Shown here one piece after another: positions 10,813 through 53,645 of a stretch of DNA of 64,000 nucleotides. Each line of letters starts with the position of its first letter. Position 1 is the stretch's first letter. The notes beneath the pieces are model-generated. The model had not been told where the DNA came from. It was given only the letters and a program-made list of their open reading frames with translations, and did not search any database. The stretch lies in the IMG/VR virus record IMGVR_UViG_3300028841_000327. One strand, given 5' to 3'. The stretch comes from a virus. The position numbers and the translations under genes were made by a program.

Positions 10813-11198
10813 AACGCGGTCTGGCACGCCTCGTCTGGTGGTCGGCCCGCGAGGGGCCGAAGGTGATCGAGCGCCCGCTCGCGCGGGTCGAGGCCGCCAC
10901 CCTGGGGGGAGCACTGCGCGCGCTCGGGGAACTGTTCCCGAAGGGTATGGAGGTGGCGCGTCTGTGGCGAGAGGCCGAACGCATGCGGGAAGAGTTCAGG
11001 GACTTCGAGCGTCGGTCCGCGCGGAGGCACAAGAGGATGGCGAAGGTGCAGCGCAACATCGAACAGACCGACCGCCTCATCAAGGCGACGGTGGAGCAGA
11101 ACGTGCTGCTGGCGGCGCGGTACAAGGCGGCGCAGGACGAAGCGGCGACTCTGCGGCTCCACGCTCTGCTCCCACGAAAGAAGGTGATCCAGTGCTGA
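10809..11198 (+). CDS. Hypothetical coiled-coil protein
   Basis: Coupled ORF. Confidence 0.5.
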   Translation: MKRGLARLVWWSAREGPKVIERPLARVEAATLGGALRALGELFPKGMEVARLWREAERMREEFRDFERRSARRHKRMAKVQRNIEQTDRLIKATVEQNVLLAARYKAAQDEAATLRLHALLPRKKVIQC

Positions 11199-11509
11199 CC
11201 AACCCGATCCACGTGCGCATGACCGTCAAGATCCGCGGCTGCGAACTCGTGAAGACGACCGCGCTGTCGACCGAGCATCCCGAGGACGAGGACGCGGCGA
11301 CCCCGTTGGGGGTCCAGCTGCGGACGCTCGGGCGGCTCCCGAGCGGCCCGCTGACCGCCACCGAGGTGCCCCAAGAGGTGCGGATCGACGTGCTGTCGGG
11401 TCTCCCCGTGCGGCACGAAGCGATCTGGATCCGGGCCGAGAAGATCGAGGGCCTGTTGGACGAGAAGATGGCTCTGCTCGAGTTTGTGAAGGAGTTCGAG
11501 GGCGCATGA
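11192..11509 (+). CDS. Hypothetical protein
   Basis: Coupled ORF. Confidence 0.45.
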   Translation: MLTNPIHVRMTVKIRGCELVKTTALSTEHPEDEDAATPLGVQLRTLGRLPSGPLTATEVPQEVRIDVLSGLPVRHEAIWIRAEKIEGLLDEKMALLEFVKEFEGA

Positions 11510-11751
11510 CCTCCCCCCCTCCCGCGGGCGCGTCAACGAAGATCGAGACGGGCATGAGCGTTCGCGTCAAACTCATCGACGGCGTCGCGTACGCCCACAT
11601 GAACGACATTGCGCTCTACCTCGAGAACGTCGCCAAGGAGGTGAGGGCGGACGCTGGACCCCCGGTTGTCCGTCACGCGGCCGCCAACGCCATCTCGGCC
11701 ATGAGTGAGAAGGTGCGCGCGGCAGCCCACAAAGCGGAGACCGAAAGATGA
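11506..11751 (+). CDS. Hypothetical protein
   Basis: ATGA-coupled ORF. Confidence 0.5.
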   Translation: MTSPPPAGASTKIETGMSVRVKLIDGVAYAHMNDIALYLENVAKEVRADAGPPVVRHAAANAISAMSEKVRAAAHKAETER

Positions 11752-11960
11752 GCGAGTCGACGAAGAGCGAGACGATCCCGGTGCCTCCGACGATGGAGGA
11801 AGCAGCCTCGATCGCTGCCGTCGAGGTGTGGCCGACGTGCAGCGATAAGGCGCGAGCGATCGTCTCGGGTCTGCTCAAGAGCCTCCCGCCCCCTTCGGGA
11901 CCCATCAAGGTGCGGATCCTCCGCGGCGAGCGGGACACCGACTACTTCAGCGACAAGTGA
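11748..11960 (+). CDS. Hypothetical protein
   Basis: ATGA-coupled ORF. Confidence 0.5.
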   Translation: MSESTKSETIPVPPTMEEAASIAAVEVWPTCSDKARAIVSGLLKSLPPPSGPIKVRILRGERDTDYFSDK

Positions 11961-12451
11961 GCCTACCCATGACCTCCCCCCTCCACATTCCGACCGGCGT
12001 GAGCATCGGTGTCCTCGCGGCGGTGGTCGTCATCCTCGTCCTGCGCCGCCTCATGATGAACTCGGGCGCGCGCGCGACCGGAGGATGGGCGCAGTCCATC
12101 CGTCCGGGCCTTGTCTTGGTCTACACCCCTGCCAAGAACAGCGAGATCCGGCGCATCTACGTCCAGACGGTGGAGGTGGTGCCGAGCAAGCGGACGTTCA
12201 TGAACCCATCAGGGCTCACGATCAGGTTCGTGTACCTCTTGCCGGTCGCGCCGGGGTCTAGTGCCGAGGCCGAGCTGGTCCGACTCTGTGAGGAGAAGGG
12301 CGAGTCGGTGGTGCAGATCGATGGGTGGAAGTACCTGGTCGACGACCACGTCAACGAGATGCCCGCGGAGGAGGGGTGGCTTCACGCGGAGATCGTCCAC
12401 CCGAGCCGGGTGTCGTCTTGGCGTCCTCGCATGCGGTGGGTGGCGGAATGA
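11957..12451 (+). CDS. Hypothetical protein with N-terminal TM helix
   Basis: Coupled ORF. Confidence 0.5.
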   Translation: MSLPMTSPLHIPTGVSIGVLAAVVVILVLRRLMMNSGARATGGWAQSIRPGLVLVYTPAKNSEIRRIYVQTVEVVPSKRTFMNPSGLTIRFVYLLPVAPGSSAEAELVRLCEEKGESVVQIDGWKYLVDDHVNEMPAEEGWLHAEIVHPSRVSSWRPRMRWVAE

Positions 12452-48761: not shown

Positions 48762-49430
48762 ATGCCGTTCAAGGTCGGACCCGATGGCAAGCAGTTGCGT
48801 GGCCTGGCCTGCGTGCCCCCCGAGGAGCGCAAGAAGATCGCGAGCAAGGGGCAGAAGGCAGCTCGAGCGAAGGGCGGCTGCTACCAGTTCGACCACGAGA
48901 CGGCGGTCCGAGCGGGCCACAAGGGTGGGGCAGCTCCGAAGCGTCGCTTGAAGACGATCGAGGAGATCACGGAGCGGACGGAGGTGGCGATCGCCTCCGC
49001 GAAGCACGACGCGAACGAGATGCGCCGTCTGATCGGCACCATCGCGGAAGAAGTCGCCGAGGTCGAGCAGATGGCGGCGGCCGCCGAAGGCCGTCCAGTC
49101 TCGCCCGAGCAGGCGGCCGCGGCGGAGGATGCGCTTGTCAAGTGGACCCGTGGGCAGCTCCCAGCGCCGGTGGTGACCGCGCTCGGCCGCTTCGGTGGAG
49201 CTCAGGACGAGTTCGCGCGTCAGGCTCGGGTGGCCGAGAAGCTCCGCCAGCAGCTGGCCGAGGTGCAGCGTCGCTCTGCGATGGAGGGCGCGCCTCCGAG
49301 TCCGGCCGTGGAGACGCAGGCGATCGCGCGCGACGTCGCCAAGATGGAAAAGGCGATCGAGGCGACGCCTCCGTCGCAGTCGGTCTCGCTGTTCCGTCGC
49401 CTGATGGGTGGCCTCTCGAACGTCGACTGA
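48762..49430 (+). CDS. KGG-repeat (general stress protein-like) domain fused to a helical domain
   Basis: PEERKKIASKGQKA....G..YQFD.E.A.RAGHKGG. Confidence 0.7.
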   Translation: MPFKVGPDGKQLRGLACVPPEERKKIASKGQKAARAKGGCYQFDHETAVRAGHKGGAAPKRRLKTIEEITERTEVAIASAKHDANEMRRLIGTIAEEVAEVEQMAAAAEGRPVSPEQAAAAEDALVKWTRGQLPAPVVTALGRFGGAQDEFARQARVAEKLRQQLAEVQRRSAMEGAPPSPAVETQAIARDVAKMEKAIEATPPSQSVSLFRRLMGGLSNVD

Positions 49431-49433
49431 GTC

Positions 49434-49727
49434 GTGGGGAACGGGGAGGAAGAGGGCGACTCGCCCATCGAGCGACTGGCGAGGCTGCTCGAGCGGGCGG
49501 GAGCGCGGGTGACGCTCGACCACGAGCGCAGCACCGCTCGCCCGTGCTTCTTCTGTGGAGCCACGGCGGTGCGTCGTGACCTTTGCAAGGTTGGCGTCTG
49601 GGCAGAGGACCGCCGAGGCAACGTGCGTCGCGGCGACCCCATCGAGCGGCCCGTGTGCGCCGGTTGCCAGGTGGCACATATGGGTAGTTGTGGACCATGC
49701 GAGAACGCCGGTGATCCGAAAAAGTGA
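49434..49727 (+). CDS. Small Cys-rich protein
   Basis: CFFC...CAGC..H..C..C. Confidence 0.35.
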   Translation: MGNGEEEGDSPIERLARLLERAGARVTLDHERSTARPCFFCGATAVRRDLCKVGVWAEDRRGNVRRGDPIERPVCAGCQVAHMGSCGPCENAGDPKK

Positions 49728-49786
49728 GGCGGCGCTCGCAATGACCCTTGCGCGTTGGTAGAGCGTGATCTACTAGTGATCTCTGT

Positions 49787-49870
49787 CGGCGAACTGCGGT
49801 CGCCGTAACTCGAGGTCGTGGTTCACGGCACTCGAGAACCATCTTCGGATGGACCTCTCGCAATGCGAGA
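49787..49870 (+). ncRNA. Four-hairpin structured RNA or leader preceding the array
   Basis: CGGCGA/TCGCCG; CTCGAGGTCGTG/CACGGCACTCGAG; CCATC-TTCG-GATGG; TCTCGC/GCGAGA. Confidence 0.55.
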
Positions 49871-49908
49871 CGTAAGCCCACAACATTGCTGATGTGATTC
49901 GGTTACCT

Positions 49909-51171
49909 GTTGAGCGGCCTGCGTGGTGTGTGGATTCGTTCAGGCGCGCAGACCAGCACCCAGCGTACGCCCACCCGTTCCGTTGAGCGGCCTGCGTGGG
50001 GTGTGGATTCGTTCAGGACCTGGGGTCCGGTGCGGAAGGTCCGCTCGCCGCTTGGTTGAGCGGCCTGCGTGGTGTGTGGATTCGTTCAGGGCCCGACAGC
50101 TCTTCTGGGTCGCGGCCTGCGCTGTGGATTCGTTTGAGCGGCCCGCGTTGTGTGGATTCGTTCAGGGCGATCACATCGTCGACCAGCTTCTCGCGTGGTG
50201 TGGATTCGCTCAGGGCTCTGCGCGAACGAAGCTCGTTCAGGGGGGAAGGCCGACAGTTCTTCTAGGTCGCGGCCTGCGCGGTTGTGGATTCGTTCAGGGC
50301 CATGACCTAGACCAGCTCGCGGGTTGAGCGGCCTGCATGGTGTGTGGATTCGTTCAGGGCCACTCGGTCACCTCGTCAACCATTGCCTGCGTGGTGTGTG
50401 GATTCGCTCAGGGGCCTTCTCGTGTATGGCGTCCGGTTCCCAGTGAGCGGCCTGCGTGGTGTGCGGCGGATTCAGGTTCGCGCTCTTGGCCAGCGTCCGC
50501 ACGAAACTCGCCGGTTGAGCGGCCTGCGTGGTGTGTGGATTCGTTCAGGGGGAGCGGCTGCGAGCCCCGCGTGAAGTCGATGGCATGTTGAGCGGCCTGC
50601 GTGGTGTGTGGATTCGTTCAGGCAGCCTGCGTGGTGTGTGGATTCGTTCAGGCTCGAACTTCACGCTCGTTCGCAGGCCCGCGCTGTCGGTTGAGCGGCC
50701 TGCGTGGTTCAGGGTCATGCCGTCGCTGTCGTTCAGGAACTGCGTGCACGATGCCGGTCCTCTTGCGTGGTGTGTGGATTTGTTCAGGCACGACACCTGA
50801 CACAGTACCCAGCTCGACTGCTGAGTGGCCTGCGTGGTGTGTGGATTCGTTCAGGCTGGCGGGCCACCGACGGCTCGATCACGACGCACGACGCAGGAGG
50901 GCGTCCACGAATAGGCTCTGGACTTCGGGGTGCGTGGTGTGTGGATTTCGTTCAGGTGGCGCGACGTGAGCCCGCCTTCGCCCCATGTGGATTCGTTCAG
51001 GCCTCGAGCGCGATGGTTTACGGTCAGGCTCAATGGCGAACACCCCTGGAGTTTTTAGCGGCCTGCGCGGTGTGTGGATTGGTTCAGGCCCACTGGCTCT
51101 GCGGAAAAACGCCATAGCGTTGTTGGGCTGCGTTCGTTCAGGAGTACGTCTAGGGTAGCGGCCTGGTCAGG
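49909..51171 (+). CRISPR. Orphan CRISPR-like array, repeat GTTGAGCGGCCTGCGTGGTGTGTGGATTCGTTCAGG (36 bp), progressively degenerate
   Basis: Full repeats at 49909, 49982, 50055, 50323, 50514, 50587; 37-bp unique spacers at 49945, 50018, 50550, 50653; about a dozen truncated copies; no cas gene in the window. Confidence 0.85.
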
Positions 51172-51722
51172 GAGGGGACGCTTCGATGGATGACCGCAGG
51201 AGCCCCGCCGGGATAGCCTTGTGGAGGATCGTCAGGACGTCGCGATGCAGTCCACCTCCGATTGTGTGTCGATCGTAGGGTGTCCGCTCAGGCTATCTTG
51301 CCTCACGAAGATTCGCGCAGGGTCGTCGCGCACATGCTGGGTCGCCCAAGGGCTCTGCGTCAGGGGTCGCGGGTTCCTGTAGATGCAGGCGCAACGGCCA
51401 GGCCAATCCGATCTGCGTGTGTGGGGTTCTCAGGGCGAAGGCGCACTACCGCAGGGACCGCTGACCCCGGAGCTCGAAGCGCAGGTGACGGAGTCACGGA
51501 TCTTGGGCGAGCGGGCCTGAGGTTCTACGCACGTGCGGTACACAGCAGGGGTCCGGGCCAGTTCGCCGATACGTGCAGGACCCGCCAAGGCGTTGCGAGC
51601 AGGACACGCGCGCGCAGGTTGTACGTGACCGCTAGGCAGGGCACCAGTATCAAGCACATGGCAGGTGGACGAATCACGGCTTGGCGGGCTAGACCGCGGC
51701 CTGATTCACAAGACCCCGCAGG
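51172..51722 (+). repeat. Vestigial array extension with recurring CAGG
   Basis: CAGG mostly every 20-36 nt; remnants such as CTGCGTGTGTGGGGTTCTCAGG at 51413-51434. Confidence 0.6.
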
Positions 51723-51747
51723 TCGTAGCCTCGTGTCTCCGCAGCGC

Positions 51748-52254
51748 TCAGCCGCTGACGAAGTCGCGAATCTCGGCAGGGCCGAGGCCAGACAGTGCCC
51801 CCACGACGACCCAGTGTCGTGCGCGTGGGTCACGAGTCGGGATGGTCGCCAGCTCGGGGTTCGCCTCGGTCAGCTCGTCGTAGAGTCCGTCCACCAGCAC
51901 CTGCCGCTCGAGGTGGTCGCCCGCCTCGGCGAGCGCCATCTGGGCGCGGTCGGCGTCCACTGGGGAGACCGACAGGTGGTAGTGGTGCGACCCCATTGCG
52001 ATGGACGGGCGGCCGCGAGGCGCCCAGCGTCGCACGAGGTCGAGCCACAGCTCACGGTCAACCCGGAACGGTGTCCTGGTCGCCTGAGGGTCACAGTTCG
52101 CGCATGCGCACCCCACGGGGTGATGCACGACCAGCTTCTGGAGCAACGGCATCGTGAGCCCGACAGCCGCGAGTGCGGTGACGACCATGGAGTCGATCTT
52201 GGCGTCGGCCGCCACCTGGACGCCGAGGGCAGAGAGCTCGTCGAAGCGGGTCAC
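51748..52254 (-). CDS. Hypothetical protein
   Basis: ORF converging on the array. Confidence 0.5.
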   Translation of the reverse strand: MTRFDELSALGVQVAADAKIDSMVVTALAAVGLTMPLLQKLVVHHPVGCACANCDPQATRTPFRVDRELWLDLVRRWAPRGRPSIAMGSHHYHLSVSPVDADRAQMALAEAGDHLERQVLVDGLYDELTEANPELATIPTRDPRARHWVVVGALSGLGPAEIRDFVSG

Positions 52255-52263
52255 CGGACCATC

Positions 52264-52677
52264 CTACGATGCCCAGGCCGGGATCGTCCACGGAGGGTCC
52301 CCCTCGAGCCGCTCGGCCCAGCGCCAGCCTGCGTGGCCGCCCCAGAGCTGCCACGCGACCCAACCGTGGGTGTGATCCCGGTCCCAGCCCGGCCGATGGT
52401 CTACCTGGTGGCGACGGAACCAGTTTCGCATCATGCGGAGGGTCTCGCGCGGGATGCTACCGCCACGCGCGAGCGCCCGCGCGCGATCGAGCGCGCCCTC
52501 CGTCAGCCCTGCCCCTCCGAACCCTTCGTCCACGAGGCGGAGGCCGTCCGCGGCCGCCTTGGAGACCCCGGCGGGGATCTCGGCGACCGCGAGCCGGGTG
52601 GGGCGCACGGCGCGCACGGTCGACCGGCGCGCCCCCCGCCGCCGCTTGCGCGAACGCTTCTTCCGGACCGTGGCCAC
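52264..52677 (-). CDS. Phage hypothetical protein with basic N-terminus
   Basis: RA..LA.G..I..ETL..M..WF.RH...GWVAWQLWGG.AG..WA motif. Confidence 0.6.
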   Translation of the reverse strand: MATVRKKRSRKRRRGARRSTVRAVRPTRLAVAEIPAGVSKAAADGLRLVDEGFGGAGLTEGALDRARALARGGSIPRETLRMMRNWFRRHQVDHRPGWDRDHTHGWVAWQLWGGHAGWRWAERLEGDPPWTIPAWAS

Positions 52678-52686
52678 CCGCCGAGG

Positions 52687-53010
52687 TTAGCCGGTCTTCG
52701 TGCGGAGCGCGATCCCGTCATCGGCCAGGCGCTGGTCGCACCAAACCCTCGCGTCGGCCTCGGAGTCGCGCACGCACTCGACCGCCGGACCGTTCAACGA
52801 GCGAACCCGCGCACACCACCGGCCGTCGTCCAGTGGGAAGACGGCAGCACACCAGACCTGAGGGTCGTCCAGAGTCCGCCCGCGGACAGAGCGCAACGAG
52901 CCCTTGGGCTCGGACCACGGCGAGGCCGTGGGCGGGAGGCTGTCGCGAACGATGGCGACGTCGTCTCCCGAGAGCGTGGGGATGGCGGCGAGGATTTCGT
53001 CGAGGGTCAT
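52687..53010 (-). CDS. Hypothetical protein
   Basis: Coupled ORF. Confidence 0.45.
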   Translation of the reverse strand: MTLDEILAAIPTLSGDDVAIVRDSLPPTASPWSEPKGSLRSVRGRTLDDPQVWCAAVFPLDDGRWCARVRSLNGPAVECVRDSEADARVWCDQRLADDGIALRTKTG

Positions 53011-53645
53011 GCGTTGACCTTGGCGAGGCGCGAGCGGTCGGTCTGCGCCTGTGCGATCGCGGCCGCGAGCGCGGCGGCCGCCGTCGGACCGGTCGCCGAG
53101 AACGTCCGCCGTCCGGGTGCCTGCGCGGTGGCGAGATGCGCGCCATGGGTCACTGGGGGCGCCAACAGGTTGATGCGGAGGTCGGCGGGGATGAGGTCCT
53201 CGAGCGTCACGGCCCGGGGCCCGTCGGACACCACCTCGACCACCTCGGCAGGCGGCCCGGGTGGAGGCGCGACCCGTGCGGGCCCGCGGCTGCCGGGCTT
53301 CTTGCGAGGGGTGGCGCTCTTGCGTGGCGGTGGAGCGGTGCTCGCGGCGATCGCGAGTTCGGCCTTTTCCCGCGCGGCCTCGCCGACCGCGAACACCTCG
53401 AACACGGGCTTGCCGACGATCGCCACGATGGCAGCCAGCATCTTGAGCGATGGCCGGGCGCCCCCAAGCTCCATCTTGCGCAGCCGCATCACCTTGACCC
53501 CGACCTTGGGCGCCCAGTCGCTGCGCGTGAAACCGAGCTGCTCCCGGATCAGCTTGATCTGGTTGCTGATGTTGGCCGTGGCCCGTGCGGCGCGGATCCG
53601 TGGGTCCACGACCAGCTTGTAGCTGGGGTCGTGCTTCCCGCCCAT
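53007..53645 (-). CDS. XRE/Cro-family HTH transcriptional regulator
   Basis: IKLIREQLGFTRSDWAPKVGV....LRKMELG...PSLKML..I. Confidence 0.75.
   Translation of the reverse strand: MGGKHDPSYKLVVDPRIRAARATANISNQIKLIREQLGFTRSDWAPKVGVKVMRLRKMELGGARPSLKMLAAIVAIVGKPVFEVFAVGEAAREKAELAIAASTAPPPRKSATPRKKPGSRGPARVAPPPGPPAEVVEVVSDGPRAVTLEDLIPADLRINLLAPPVTHGAHLATAQAPGRRTFSATGPTAAAALAAAIAQAQTDRSRLAKVNA

What the first reader, a model, noticed from the sequence alone, without database searches (positions are those of the whole stretch)
49748..49908. Highly structured RNA immediately upstream of the orphan array (tracr/scout/scaffold candidate)
Seen: a possible promoter (TTGCGC-17-TACTAG, overlapping the palindrome GATCTACTAGTGATC), then four consecutive hairpins in 84 nt, including a C-UUCG-G tetraloop. 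Next comes TGTGATTCGGTT (49893), resembling the repeat 3' end, and then repeat 1. There is no long anti-repeat, only a CCACA pentamer (49878) complementary to the repeat's TGTGG. Known: typical leaders are AT-rich and poorly structured, whereas tracr, scout and omega RNAs are multi-hairpin. Inference: a scaffold RNA co-transcribed with the guides, acting with an effector encoded elsewhere (host or distal viral gene).
Basis: partly seen in the sequence, partly recalled or inferred. Interest (0 to 1): 0.75.

Follow-up and report, generated by a model that had tools for sequence, protein, structure and literature searches.

The report
Ultra-conserved four-hairpin leader of phage CRISPR array
Just upstream of a cas-less CRISPR array in an uncultured high-GC phage lies a 94-base, four-hairpin RNA-like module that has stayed letter-for-letter identical while everything around it mutated, so it is almost certainly functional, but nothing shows it is a tracr-, scout- or omega-type guide scaffold.

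Summary
Window 49782-49875 folds into four tandem hairpins, two of them capped by cUNCGg tetraloops (z -3.8 against shuffles; top 0.13% of all 94-nt stretches of the window).

The main new result is conservation. In a relative whose neutral sites differ by 32-44%, a 90-nt core is identical. The 54 nt upstream, the 33 nt between the module and repeat 1, and the repeat's 3' half all diverge. The module's words occur intact in 13 sequencing runs, including runs from six further studies in which only 27-51% of the flank's words survive.

More distant relatives that keep the flanking genes have neither the module nor the array, so the two arrived together. The array behaves like a live CRISPR array: a 94%-identical genome has five different leader-proximal spacers and shares distal ones in the same order.

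The scaffold reading is not supported:
- There is no anti-repeat.
- The CCACA pentamer lies outside the conserved core and is lost in the relative.
- The promoter is weak and its -10 box is not conserved.
- No cas gene was found among the 16 largest likely-coding ORFs of the 64-kb window.

Best reading (about 0.5): a transcribed, protein-bound cis-acting leader RNA module of the pre-crRNA.

The scan noted the same leader on another genome (e1-5356831).

The parts
49434..49727 (+). Upstream gene: a 97-aa Cys-rich (CxxC...CxxC) protein. It is context, not part of the element.
   Evidence: Conserved in L010 and L026 with a coding pattern (divergence at codon positions 1/2/3 = 0.13/0.13/0.44). A 63%-identical homologue in L024 is followed directly by another gene, with no module and no array.
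49748..49776 (+). Weak and unproven.
   Evidence: The -35 box is kept in L010 and L026. The -10 box is not kept in L010 (TACAGA). The consensus scan finds no promoter. An RNA-library piece from run X18 spans 49731-49877, so it starts upstream of this promoter.
49782..49875 (+). Invariant four-hairpin module. H1 49787-49805 with C(UGCG)G; H2 49809-49836 with a G.U pair and a bulged A; H3 49839-49852 with C(UUCG)G; H4 49853-49873 with an AAU loop.
   Evidence: Fold: -42.7 kcal/mol, z -3.84 on the + strand; -37.5 kcal/mol, z -3.36 on the - strand. Conservation: 0/94 differences to L026 and 2/94 (both at the edges) to L010, whose flanks differ by 18-42%. Left boundary at 49782 in the X5 contig, the X19 piece and L010. 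No Rfam or tRNA match.
49876..49888 (+). Variable linker containing the CCACA pentamer.
   Evidence: Scattered substitutions in L010; the junction 49876-49908 differs at 14 of 33 positions.
49889..49908 (+). Degenerate copy of the repeat's 3' half (a pseudo-repeat) abutting repeat 1 with no spacer between.
   Evidence: In the window it resembles the window-type repeat 3' half. In L010 the same position reads GAAATTG..., resembling that lineage's own repeat 3' half GAAGTTG.... This comparison was made by eye and is weak.
49909..49944 (+). Repeat 1, 36 nt. The 5' 20 nt are invariant across lineages; the 3' 16 nt are lineage-specific.
   Evidence: The repeat hairpin forms only on the + strand: -9.5 against -2.0 kcal/mol for the window type and -13.5 against -7.2 for the L010 type. 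Three of four substitutions at paired positions are G.U/G-C exchanges that keep the pair.
49945..51160 (+). Cas-less CRISPR-like array: three regular 73-nt units, then truncated units.
   Evidence: Against L026, the five leader-proximal units are unique to each genome, and units 6, 7, 16, 20 and 23 are shared in the same order.
51161..51747 (+). Eroded tail of the array, running to the 3' end of the convergent minus-strand operon.
Evidence: A similar tail is seen in L025.

Best explanation
The stretch is the leader of a phage-borne, cas-less CRISPR array that was adding spacers until recently. Its core, 49782-49875, is a compact four-hairpin module that works as RNA on the + strand.

Shown:
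- The module is exceptionally stable.
- Its strand-specific features (two cUNCGg tetraloops and a G.U pair) exist only on the array's strand.
- It is invariant, loops and linkers included, across lineages whose neutral sites differ by up to about 40%.
- It is present only where the array is present.
- The array gains or replaces spacers at the end next to it.

Inferred:
- The module is transcribed as the 5' part of the array transcript, from a start upstream of 49731. This may be read-through from the 222-aa/97-aa operon.
- It folds as it is made and is bound sequence-specifically by a conserved protein, from host or phage.
- It acts in cis. Either it shields the untranslated, G-rich array transcript from 5'-end-dependent decay or premature termination, or it recruits the processing machinery. 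Guides from a cas-less array could then be made and used by Cas proteins encoded elsewhere.
- It does not base-pair with the repeats, so it does not work as a tracrRNA.
For: Structure:
- z -3.84, with 0 of 200 shuffles folding as well.
- Top 0.13% of natural 94-nt stretches of the window.

Strand:
- C(UGCG)G and C(UUCG)G loops and a G.U pair exist only on the + strand (-42.7 against -37.5 kcal/mol).
- The repeats also fold only on the + strand, and the lineage differences preserve those pairs.

Selection:
- 0/94 differences to L026 and 2/94 (both at the edges) to L010.
- In L010 the upstream intergenic stretch differs at 35%, the junction at 42% and third codon positions at 32-44%.
- At a 30% neutral rate, the chance of 0 changes in 94 is about 3e-15.
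- Independent runs: the module's sampled words are complete in 13 runs. In six of those studies (bioreactor and wetland) the 504-nt flank keeps only 27-51% of its words. Activated sludge, wastewater, biofilm and sediment runs also hold it.

Link to the array:
- Relatives at 43-63% protein identity keep the flanking genes but lack both the module and the array.
- The five leader-proximal spacers differ between the window and L026, while distal units are shared in the same order.
- The wetland contig (X15) has a different spacer 1 behind an identical module, junction and repeat 1.

Transcription (weak): read-length pieces from two metatranscriptomes cover the module, X18 at 49731-49877 and X19 at 49782-49886.
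Against: - No covariation can be shown because the module never varies, so the structure rests on thermodynamics and loop types alone.
- Structure-only roles such as an exonuclease block do not need 100% sequence identity. A binding partner is therefore postulated but not identified.
- The RNA evidence is two 151-nt pieces at depth 2-3 in libraries that may contain DNA. One piece of similar depth lies in the upstream gene, so there is no enrichment.
- Both RNA pieces end at 49877-49886, before the repeats. This could mean the transcript ends there and does not continue into the array.
- No promoter was identified.
- The Cas partner, the CRISPR subtype and the host are all unknown.
Confidence: 0.5

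Rival explanations
1. Guide-RNA scaffold. The module would be the protein-binding body of a tracr-, scout- or omega-like RNA that assembles with an unidentified RNA-guided effector. That effector would be encoded in the unread 62 kb of the phage genome or in the host. The module would act either in trans on the processed guides or in cis on the unit that follows it.
For: - Invariance of stems, loops and linkers alike is what a protein-bound scaffold shows.
- The order, with hairpins first, then a repeat-3'-half-like segment and then variable sequence, matches type V single-guide architecture.
Against: - No anti-repeat exists.
- CCACA is not conserved and does not covary with the repeat.
- The repeat's 3' half changed at 5 of 16 positions between lineages while the module did not change at all.
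- No RuvC, TnpB, IscB or Cas hit among 16 ORFs, the largest that pass a GC3 coding filter (Pfam and PADLOC).
- No match to any omega-RNA or tracr family of Rfam.
- Spacers of 36-43 nt are longer than is usual for type V (from my own knowledge).
Confidence: 0.15
2. DNA-level leader signal. The module would be the docking or bending platform that lets a Cas1-Cas2 integrase, with a host factor, find repeat 1. The hairpins would then be incidental.
For: - Polarised spacer turnover right next to it.
- CRISPR leaders carry conserved upstream motifs, and up to about 150 bp of leader is folded in the type I-F integration complex (bioRxiv 10.1101/2023.05.26.542337, listed).
Against: - A DNA signal does not explain four perfect hairpins, two cUNCGg loops or the strand asymmetry.
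- Known leader motifs are short, not 90 invariant base pairs (from my own knowledge).
- The 33 bp that touch repeat 1, usually the most critical part, are the least conserved here.
Confidence: 0.12
3. End-of-operon element or independent small RNA. The hairpins would terminate or stabilise the 3' end of the upstream + strand operon, or encode a separate sRNA that merely neighbours the array.
For: - Both RNA-library pieces start upstream of the module and stop at 49877-49886, just after H4.
- Stable UUCG-capped hairpins are common in terminators (from my own knowledge).
Against: - No U-tract is present, and the terminator scan finds nothing there.
- Relatives that keep the upstream genes but lack the array also lack the module.
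- The X19 piece has the module behind an unrelated upstream sequence.
- Terminators are not conserved at 100% when the flanks differ by 35-40%.
Confidence: 0.1
4. No function of its own. The identity would reflect recent recombination with a common donor, such as a host CRISPR locus, that repeatedly overwrites the leader.
For: - The left edge of identity falls sharply at 49782 in three lineages.
- Phage arrays are thought to be captured from host arrays.
Against: - In L010 the identical module is followed by a junction that differs at 42% and by a lineage-specific repeat 3' half that is fixed throughout that lineage's array. The tract is therefore not one recent transfer.
- No donor was found in IMG/VR, the GTDB species genomes, the JGI metagenome contigs, the phage and plasmid collections, or 401 Actinomycetota genomes.
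Confidence: 0.08

Closest known systems
CRISPR leaders with an RNA-level role: the leader-repeat hairpins that suppress extraneous crRNA (type VI, Migur et al. 2026, PMC13187072; type II-C, PMC12080349)
   Same: A transcribed leader upstream of repeat 1, on the array strand, whose RNA structure rather than AT-richness is the conserved feature.
   Different: Those leaders pair with the first repeat. Here the conserved module is four self-contained hairpins 33 nt away from repeat 1. The only predicted leader-repeat pairing (49876-49885 with the start of repeat 1) is not kept in the L010 lineage.
Virus-borne cas-less or mini CRISPR arrays (Medvedeva et al. 2019, PMC6858448; review PMC11656645)
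   Same: An array on a virus, with no cas genes in reach, that presumably uses Cas proteins supplied in trans. Spacer content differs between close relatives.
   Different: Those reports, as far as I read them (titles and abstracts only), do not describe a structured, ultra-conserved leader RNA. This array is also long (over 20 units) and heavily eroded.
tracrRNA / scoutRNA of type II and type V systems
   Same: A multi-hairpin non-coding element next to an array. scoutRNA genes also lie upstream of the array (from my own knowledge of Harrington et al. 2020).
   Different: There is no anti-repeat, the short complementarity is not conserved, and no effector gene was found.
RNA anti-CRISPRs (Racr; Camara-Wilpert et al. 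2023, PMC10651486)
   Same: Phage-encoded repeat-derived RNA without cas genes. A half pseudo-repeat abuts repeat 1.
   Different: Racrs are solitary repeat units. Here there is a multi-unit array with turnover at the leader end, and the conserved module is not repeat-like.

Membership tests
CRISPR leader | Lies directly upstream of the first repeat, at the end of the array where repeats are best preserved | tested here: met
   Regular 73-nt units at 49909-50090, with decay increasing to the right.
CRISPR leader | New spacers enter next to it (leader-proximal units differ between close relatives, distal units are shared) | tested here: met
   Window against L026: units 1-5 are unique to each genome; units 6, 7, 16, 20 and 23 are shared in the same order. 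The wetland contig X15 has a different spacer 1. Differential loss is a less parsimonious alternative.
CRISPR leader | Carries the array promoter | tested here: inconclusive
   No consensus promoter. The -10 box is not conserved. RNA-library pieces begin upstream of 49731.
tracrRNA (type II / V-B, E, F, G, K) | An anti-repeat able to form a long duplex with the repeat | tested here: not met
   Best duplexes between the leader and the repeat are no better than with shuffled repeats (z +0.45 to +1.07). A scan of the whole window finds only the array itself.
tracrRNA (type II / V-B, E, F, G, K) | Encoded beside cas9 or cas12 | tested here: not met
   No such domain in 16 ORFs, the largest that pass a GC3 coding filter (Pfam, PADLOC); no likely-coding ORF exceeds 583 aa. 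The part of the genome outside the window could not be read.
scoutRNA (type V-C / V-D) | A short conserved stretch complementary to the repeat | tested here: not met
   CCACA (49878) reads CCATA in L010, and TGTGG reads CGTGA in that lineage's repeat, so there is no compensation.
omega RNA / reRNA (IscB, TnpB) | Overlaps or abuts an iscB or tnpB gene and matches known omega-RNA families | tested here: not met
   The upstream gene encodes a 97-aa Zn-ribbon-like protein that is also present in relatives without the module. No Rfam match at E up to 10.
Leader-repeat inhibitory hairpin (suppression of extraneous crRNA) | Conserved pairing between the leader and the first repeat | tested here: inconclusive
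   The window's minimum-energy fold pairs 49876-49885 with the start of repeat 1. The L010-type sequence does not.
Intrinsic terminator | A GC-rich hairpin followed by a U-tract | tested here: not met
   The scan finds none in 49700-49910, and no T run follows any of the four hairpins.
tRNA / tmRNA / any Rfam family | Match to a covariance model | tested here: not met
   ARAGORN and Rfam at gathering and at E-value thresholds.
RNA anti-CRISPR (Racr) | A solitary repeat unit with its own promoter | tested here: not met
   More than 20 units with spacers.

The most novel reading that the evidence does not exclude
The invariant four-hairpin module is the protein-binding scaffold of an undescribed RNA-guided system that needs no anti-repeat. 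It would be carried by a clade of phages of at least 125 kb, with the effector in the unread part of the genome or in the host. The eroded units of repeat tail plus about 20 nt would be its minimal guides.
Probability: 0.12. Interest if true: 0.9.

Novelty: new variant of a known kind. Interest (0 to 1): 0.55.

Why it matters
CRISPR leaders are usually treated as AT-rich DNA signals. RNA-level roles for leaders have only recently been shown, and those involve pairing with the first repeat.

Here the leader has a self-contained, multi-hairpin RNA module that is conserved more strictly than the neighbouring genes and than the repeat itself. It sits on a virus that carries no cas genes within reach. 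This points to an unrecognised requirement for expressing or using trans-served arrays, or to a new ribonucleoprotein.

The module also gives a sharp 90-nt probe for finding every member of this array family, and its host, in metagenomes.

Tried and rejected
Searches for the repeat or module elsewhere:
- The full 3' repeat pattern, a module 28-mer and the repeat 5' 20-mer gave 0 hits in IMG/VR.
- An array-type pattern in the GTDB species genomes gave only two unrelated coding or tandem repeats. That pattern used the repeat's 3' half, which later proved to be the variable half, so a host could have been missed.
- JGI metagenome contigs gave 0 hits for the 3' pattern and six single chance matches for the 5' 20-mer, none in an array.
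- The phage and plasmid collections gave no match to the leader, the array or the L026 array, so no protospacers either.
- In 401 Actinomycetota genomes, the 9 single matches were no more than the reversed-pattern control found.

Other tests with negative or empty results:
- tRNA and Rfam searches.
- Anti-repeat search.
- Second copies of the module in the window: none. Only a 9-nt CTCGCAATG recurs at 49735 and 49857, at chance level.
- Spacers against the window and all held loci: only repeat-derived hits.
- A long-range pairing of H1 with the repeat's 3' half appears in the window's fold but not in the L010 type, so I rejected it.

Steps that failed:
- Walking into the rest of the genome failed.
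- No whole genome is held for the window or for the JGI contigs.
- The 786-aa ORF at 51262-53622 looks spurious. It fails the GC3 coding filter and lies antisense to four conserved minus-strand genes.

Full report
**Setting.** The window is 67% GC, carries 29 tRNA genes and many small ORFs, and has no match in the phage or plasmid collections. No whole genome is held for it. Identical copies lie on contigs from a JGI bioreactor metagenome and from Logan bioreactor runs (L003-L009).

A GC3-based gene call places + strand genes up to 49727: a 222-aa protein at 48762-49430 and a 97-aa Cys-rich protein at 49434-49727. Minus-strand genes begin at 51748. The finding and the array therefore occupy the gap between two convergent gene blocks. 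The 786-aa ORF at 51262-53622 is antisense to those minus-strand genes and looks spurious.

**The observation.**
- As given, 49748-49908 folds with z -2.25 on the + strand and -1.58 on the - strand.
- Trimmed to 49782-49875, the stretch folds into four tandem hairpins at -42.7 kcal/mol, z -3.84. No shuffle among 200 folds as well.
- Against 12,782 natural 94-nt stretches from both strands of the window, and after correcting for GC, it ranks in the top 0.13%.
- H1 closes on C(UGCG)G and H3 on C(UUCG)G. Both are cUNCGg tetraloops.
- H2 contains a G.U pair.
- On the minus strand these features become CGCA and CGAA loops and a C.A mismatch, and the fold is weaker (-37.5 kcal/mol).
- The array repeat behaves the same way, at -9.5 kcal/mol on the + strand against -2.0 on the - strand.

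The element and the array are best read as RNA on the + strand.

**Conservation, the main new result.** Three relatives could be read.
- L010 is a Logan contig whose neighbouring protein is 84% identical.
- L026 is part of a 125.7-kb JGI contig that is about 94% identical in DNA.
- L025 is of the L010 type and covers the trailer side of the array.

Divergence from the window, region by region:

| Region | L026 | L010 |
|---|---|---|
| 222-aa gene | 2.7% | 17.6% |
| 97-aa gene | 3.4% | 24% |
| Third codon positions | 5-6% | 32-44% |
| Upstream intergenic, 49728-49781 | 9% | 35% |
| Module, 49782-49875 | 0/94 | 2/94 (both at the edges) |
| Junction, 49876-49908 | 0/33 | 14/33 (42%) |
| Repeat 1, 5' 20 nt | 0 | 0 |
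| Repeat 1, 3' part | 0 | 4/10 read |

At a neutral rate of 30%, the chance of no change in 94 positions is about 3e-15.

Contigs laid on the window agree with this.
- The X5 bioreactor contig has 17 differences in 49300-49781 and none in 49782-49937.
- The X15 wetland contig is identical over 49760-49944 and then carries a different spacer 1.
- The X19 RNA-library piece has the module from 49782 onward behind 46 nt of unrelated sequence.

The module's sampled words are complete in 13 runs. In six of those studies, from bioreactors and a wetland, only 27-51% of the flank's words survive. Other holders are activated sludge, wastewater, biofilm and sediment runs.

Because the junction between the module and repeat 1 has diverged at about the neutral rate in L010, the identity is not one recent recombination tract. 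The module itself is under strong purifying selection. This selection covers stems, loops and linkers alike, so no covariation is available to confirm the fold.

**Link to the array.**
- Relatives at 43% identity (L017-L019) and 63% identity (L024) keep the flanking genes in the same order but have neither the module nor the array. The two are a joint acquisition in a narrow clade.
- The array evolves like a working CRISPR array. Between the window and L026, the five leader-proximal units are unique to each genome, while units 6, 7, 16, 20 and 23 of the window recur in the same order in L026.
- The L010/L025 lineage has its own repeat 3' half, differing at 5 of 16 positions. This variant is fixed along that lineage's whole array. 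Three of the four changes at paired positions are G.U/G-C exchanges that keep the + strand hairpin.
- The module stayed constant while the part of the repeat that usually forms the crRNA handle changed.

**Tests of the scaffold idea.**
- There is no anti-repeat. Duplexes between the leader (either strand) and the repeat (either orientation) are no better than with shuffled repeats (z +0.45 to +1.07). A scan of the whole window finds only the array itself.
- The CCACA pentamer lies in the variable linker. It reads CCATA in L010, with no compensating change in that lineage's repeat.
- The repeat-like TGTGATTCGGTT is real. It belongs to a degenerate repeat 3' half that abuts repeat 1. In L010 the same position resembles that lineage's own repeat 3' half. 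This is a by-eye comparison and is weak.
- Rfam (4,227 families, E up to 10) and ARAGORN find nothing.
- Pfam and PADLOC scans covered 16 ORFs, the largest that pass a GC3 coding filter. They find DnaB, DUF5131, DUF1643 and an ADP-ribosylglycohydrolase, but no Cas, RuvC or TnpB domain. No likely-coding ORF exceeds 583 aa.
- About 45 kb to the left and 17 kb to the right of the window exist on the 125.7-kb contig and could not be read.

**Transcription.** The proposed promoter fails a consensus scan. Its -10 box is not conserved, although the -35 TTGCGC is.

Two metatranscriptome libraries each give one read-length piece over the module, at depth 2-3: X18 at 49731-49877 and X19 at 49782-49886 plus 46 unrelated nucleotides upstream. 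Both begin about 50 nt before the module, so they do not start at the predicted site. Both stop just after H4. X18 has a piece of similar depth in the upstream gene. This is compatible with transcription but does not prove it, since DNA carry-over is possible. It also leaves open whether transcripts continue into the repeats.

**Interpretation.** The features that are shown are these:
- RNA-type structural features that exist only on the array's strand.
- Invariance of the whole module, loops and linkers included.
- Co-occurrence with the array.
- Spacer turnover at the adjacent end of the array.
- No pairing to the repeat.

They fit best a transcribed leader module that acts in cis and is bound by a conserved protein. 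It would stabilise, anti-terminate or hand over the untranslated pre-crRNA of an array whose Cas proteins are supplied in trans. I give this 0.5.

The rivals:
- A guide scaffold for an unseen effector (0.15).
- A purely DNA-level integration platform (0.12). This is weakened by the UNCG loops and by the poor conservation of the 33 bp that touch repeat 1.
- A terminator, 3'-UTR element or independent sRNA (0.10). This is weakened by the missing U-tract and by the absence of the module where the array is absent.
- Homogenisation without any function (0.08). This is weakened by the diverged junction.

**Comparison with what is known.** Leader RNAs with a function are known. Leader-repeat hairpins suppress extraneous crRNAs in type VI (PMC13187072) and type II-C (PMC12080349). 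Those leaders work by pairing with the first repeat, which is not conserved here. Cas-less viral arrays (PMC6858448, PMC11656645) and RNA anti-CRISPRs (PMC10651486) are the closest settings, but neither is reported to have such a module. I therefore class it as a new variant of a known kind, namely a CRISPR leader on a viral cas-less array.

The scan has already noted the same hairpin leader on another genome (e1-5356831), with related arrays (e1-5356830, e1-5324779). I could not read those sequences.

Noticed in passing
window 49945-51160 against L026 (reverse strand of locus positions about 10900-12380): Arrays of two genomes that are 94% identical differ in all five leader-proximal units but share at least five distal units in the same order. 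This means recent polarised spacer gain plus internal losses on a phage with no cas gene found among the 16 window ORFs scanned. Some of the newest units in L026 are already truncated (46 and 62 nt).
   Followed up: partly
L010 5760-5790; L025 reverse strand, first 450 nt: The sister lineage uses a repeat with the same 5' 20 nt but a different 3' half (5 of 16 positions). Three of the four changes at paired positions keep the + strand hairpin. Its array has a similar eroded tail of short GTTGCTCAGG-type tags.
   Followed up: partly
window 49434-49727: The 97-aa Cys-rich ORF was not called on the JGI contig, but it is a real gene. It is conserved in L010, L026 and L024, and divergence is concentrated at third codon positions (0.44 against 0.13).
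   Followed up: partly
window 33060-33143: ARAGORN reports a tRNA of undetermined identity with a four-base anticodon (gacc), directly upstream of a tRNA-His. It could be a frameshift-suppressor-like tRNA or a mis-call.
   Followed up: no
window 49735-49743 and 49857-49865: The 9-mer CTCGCAATG occurs both just after the stop codon of the 97-aa gene and inside hairpin 4. This is at chance level by BLAST (E 33).
   Followed up: no
L017/L018 (about 700-900 and 1400-1700); L024 1392-2240: More distant relatives have convergent genes or an extra 278-aa gene at the site where this clade carries the module and array. This marks the insertion point of the CRISPR module.
   Followed up: partly
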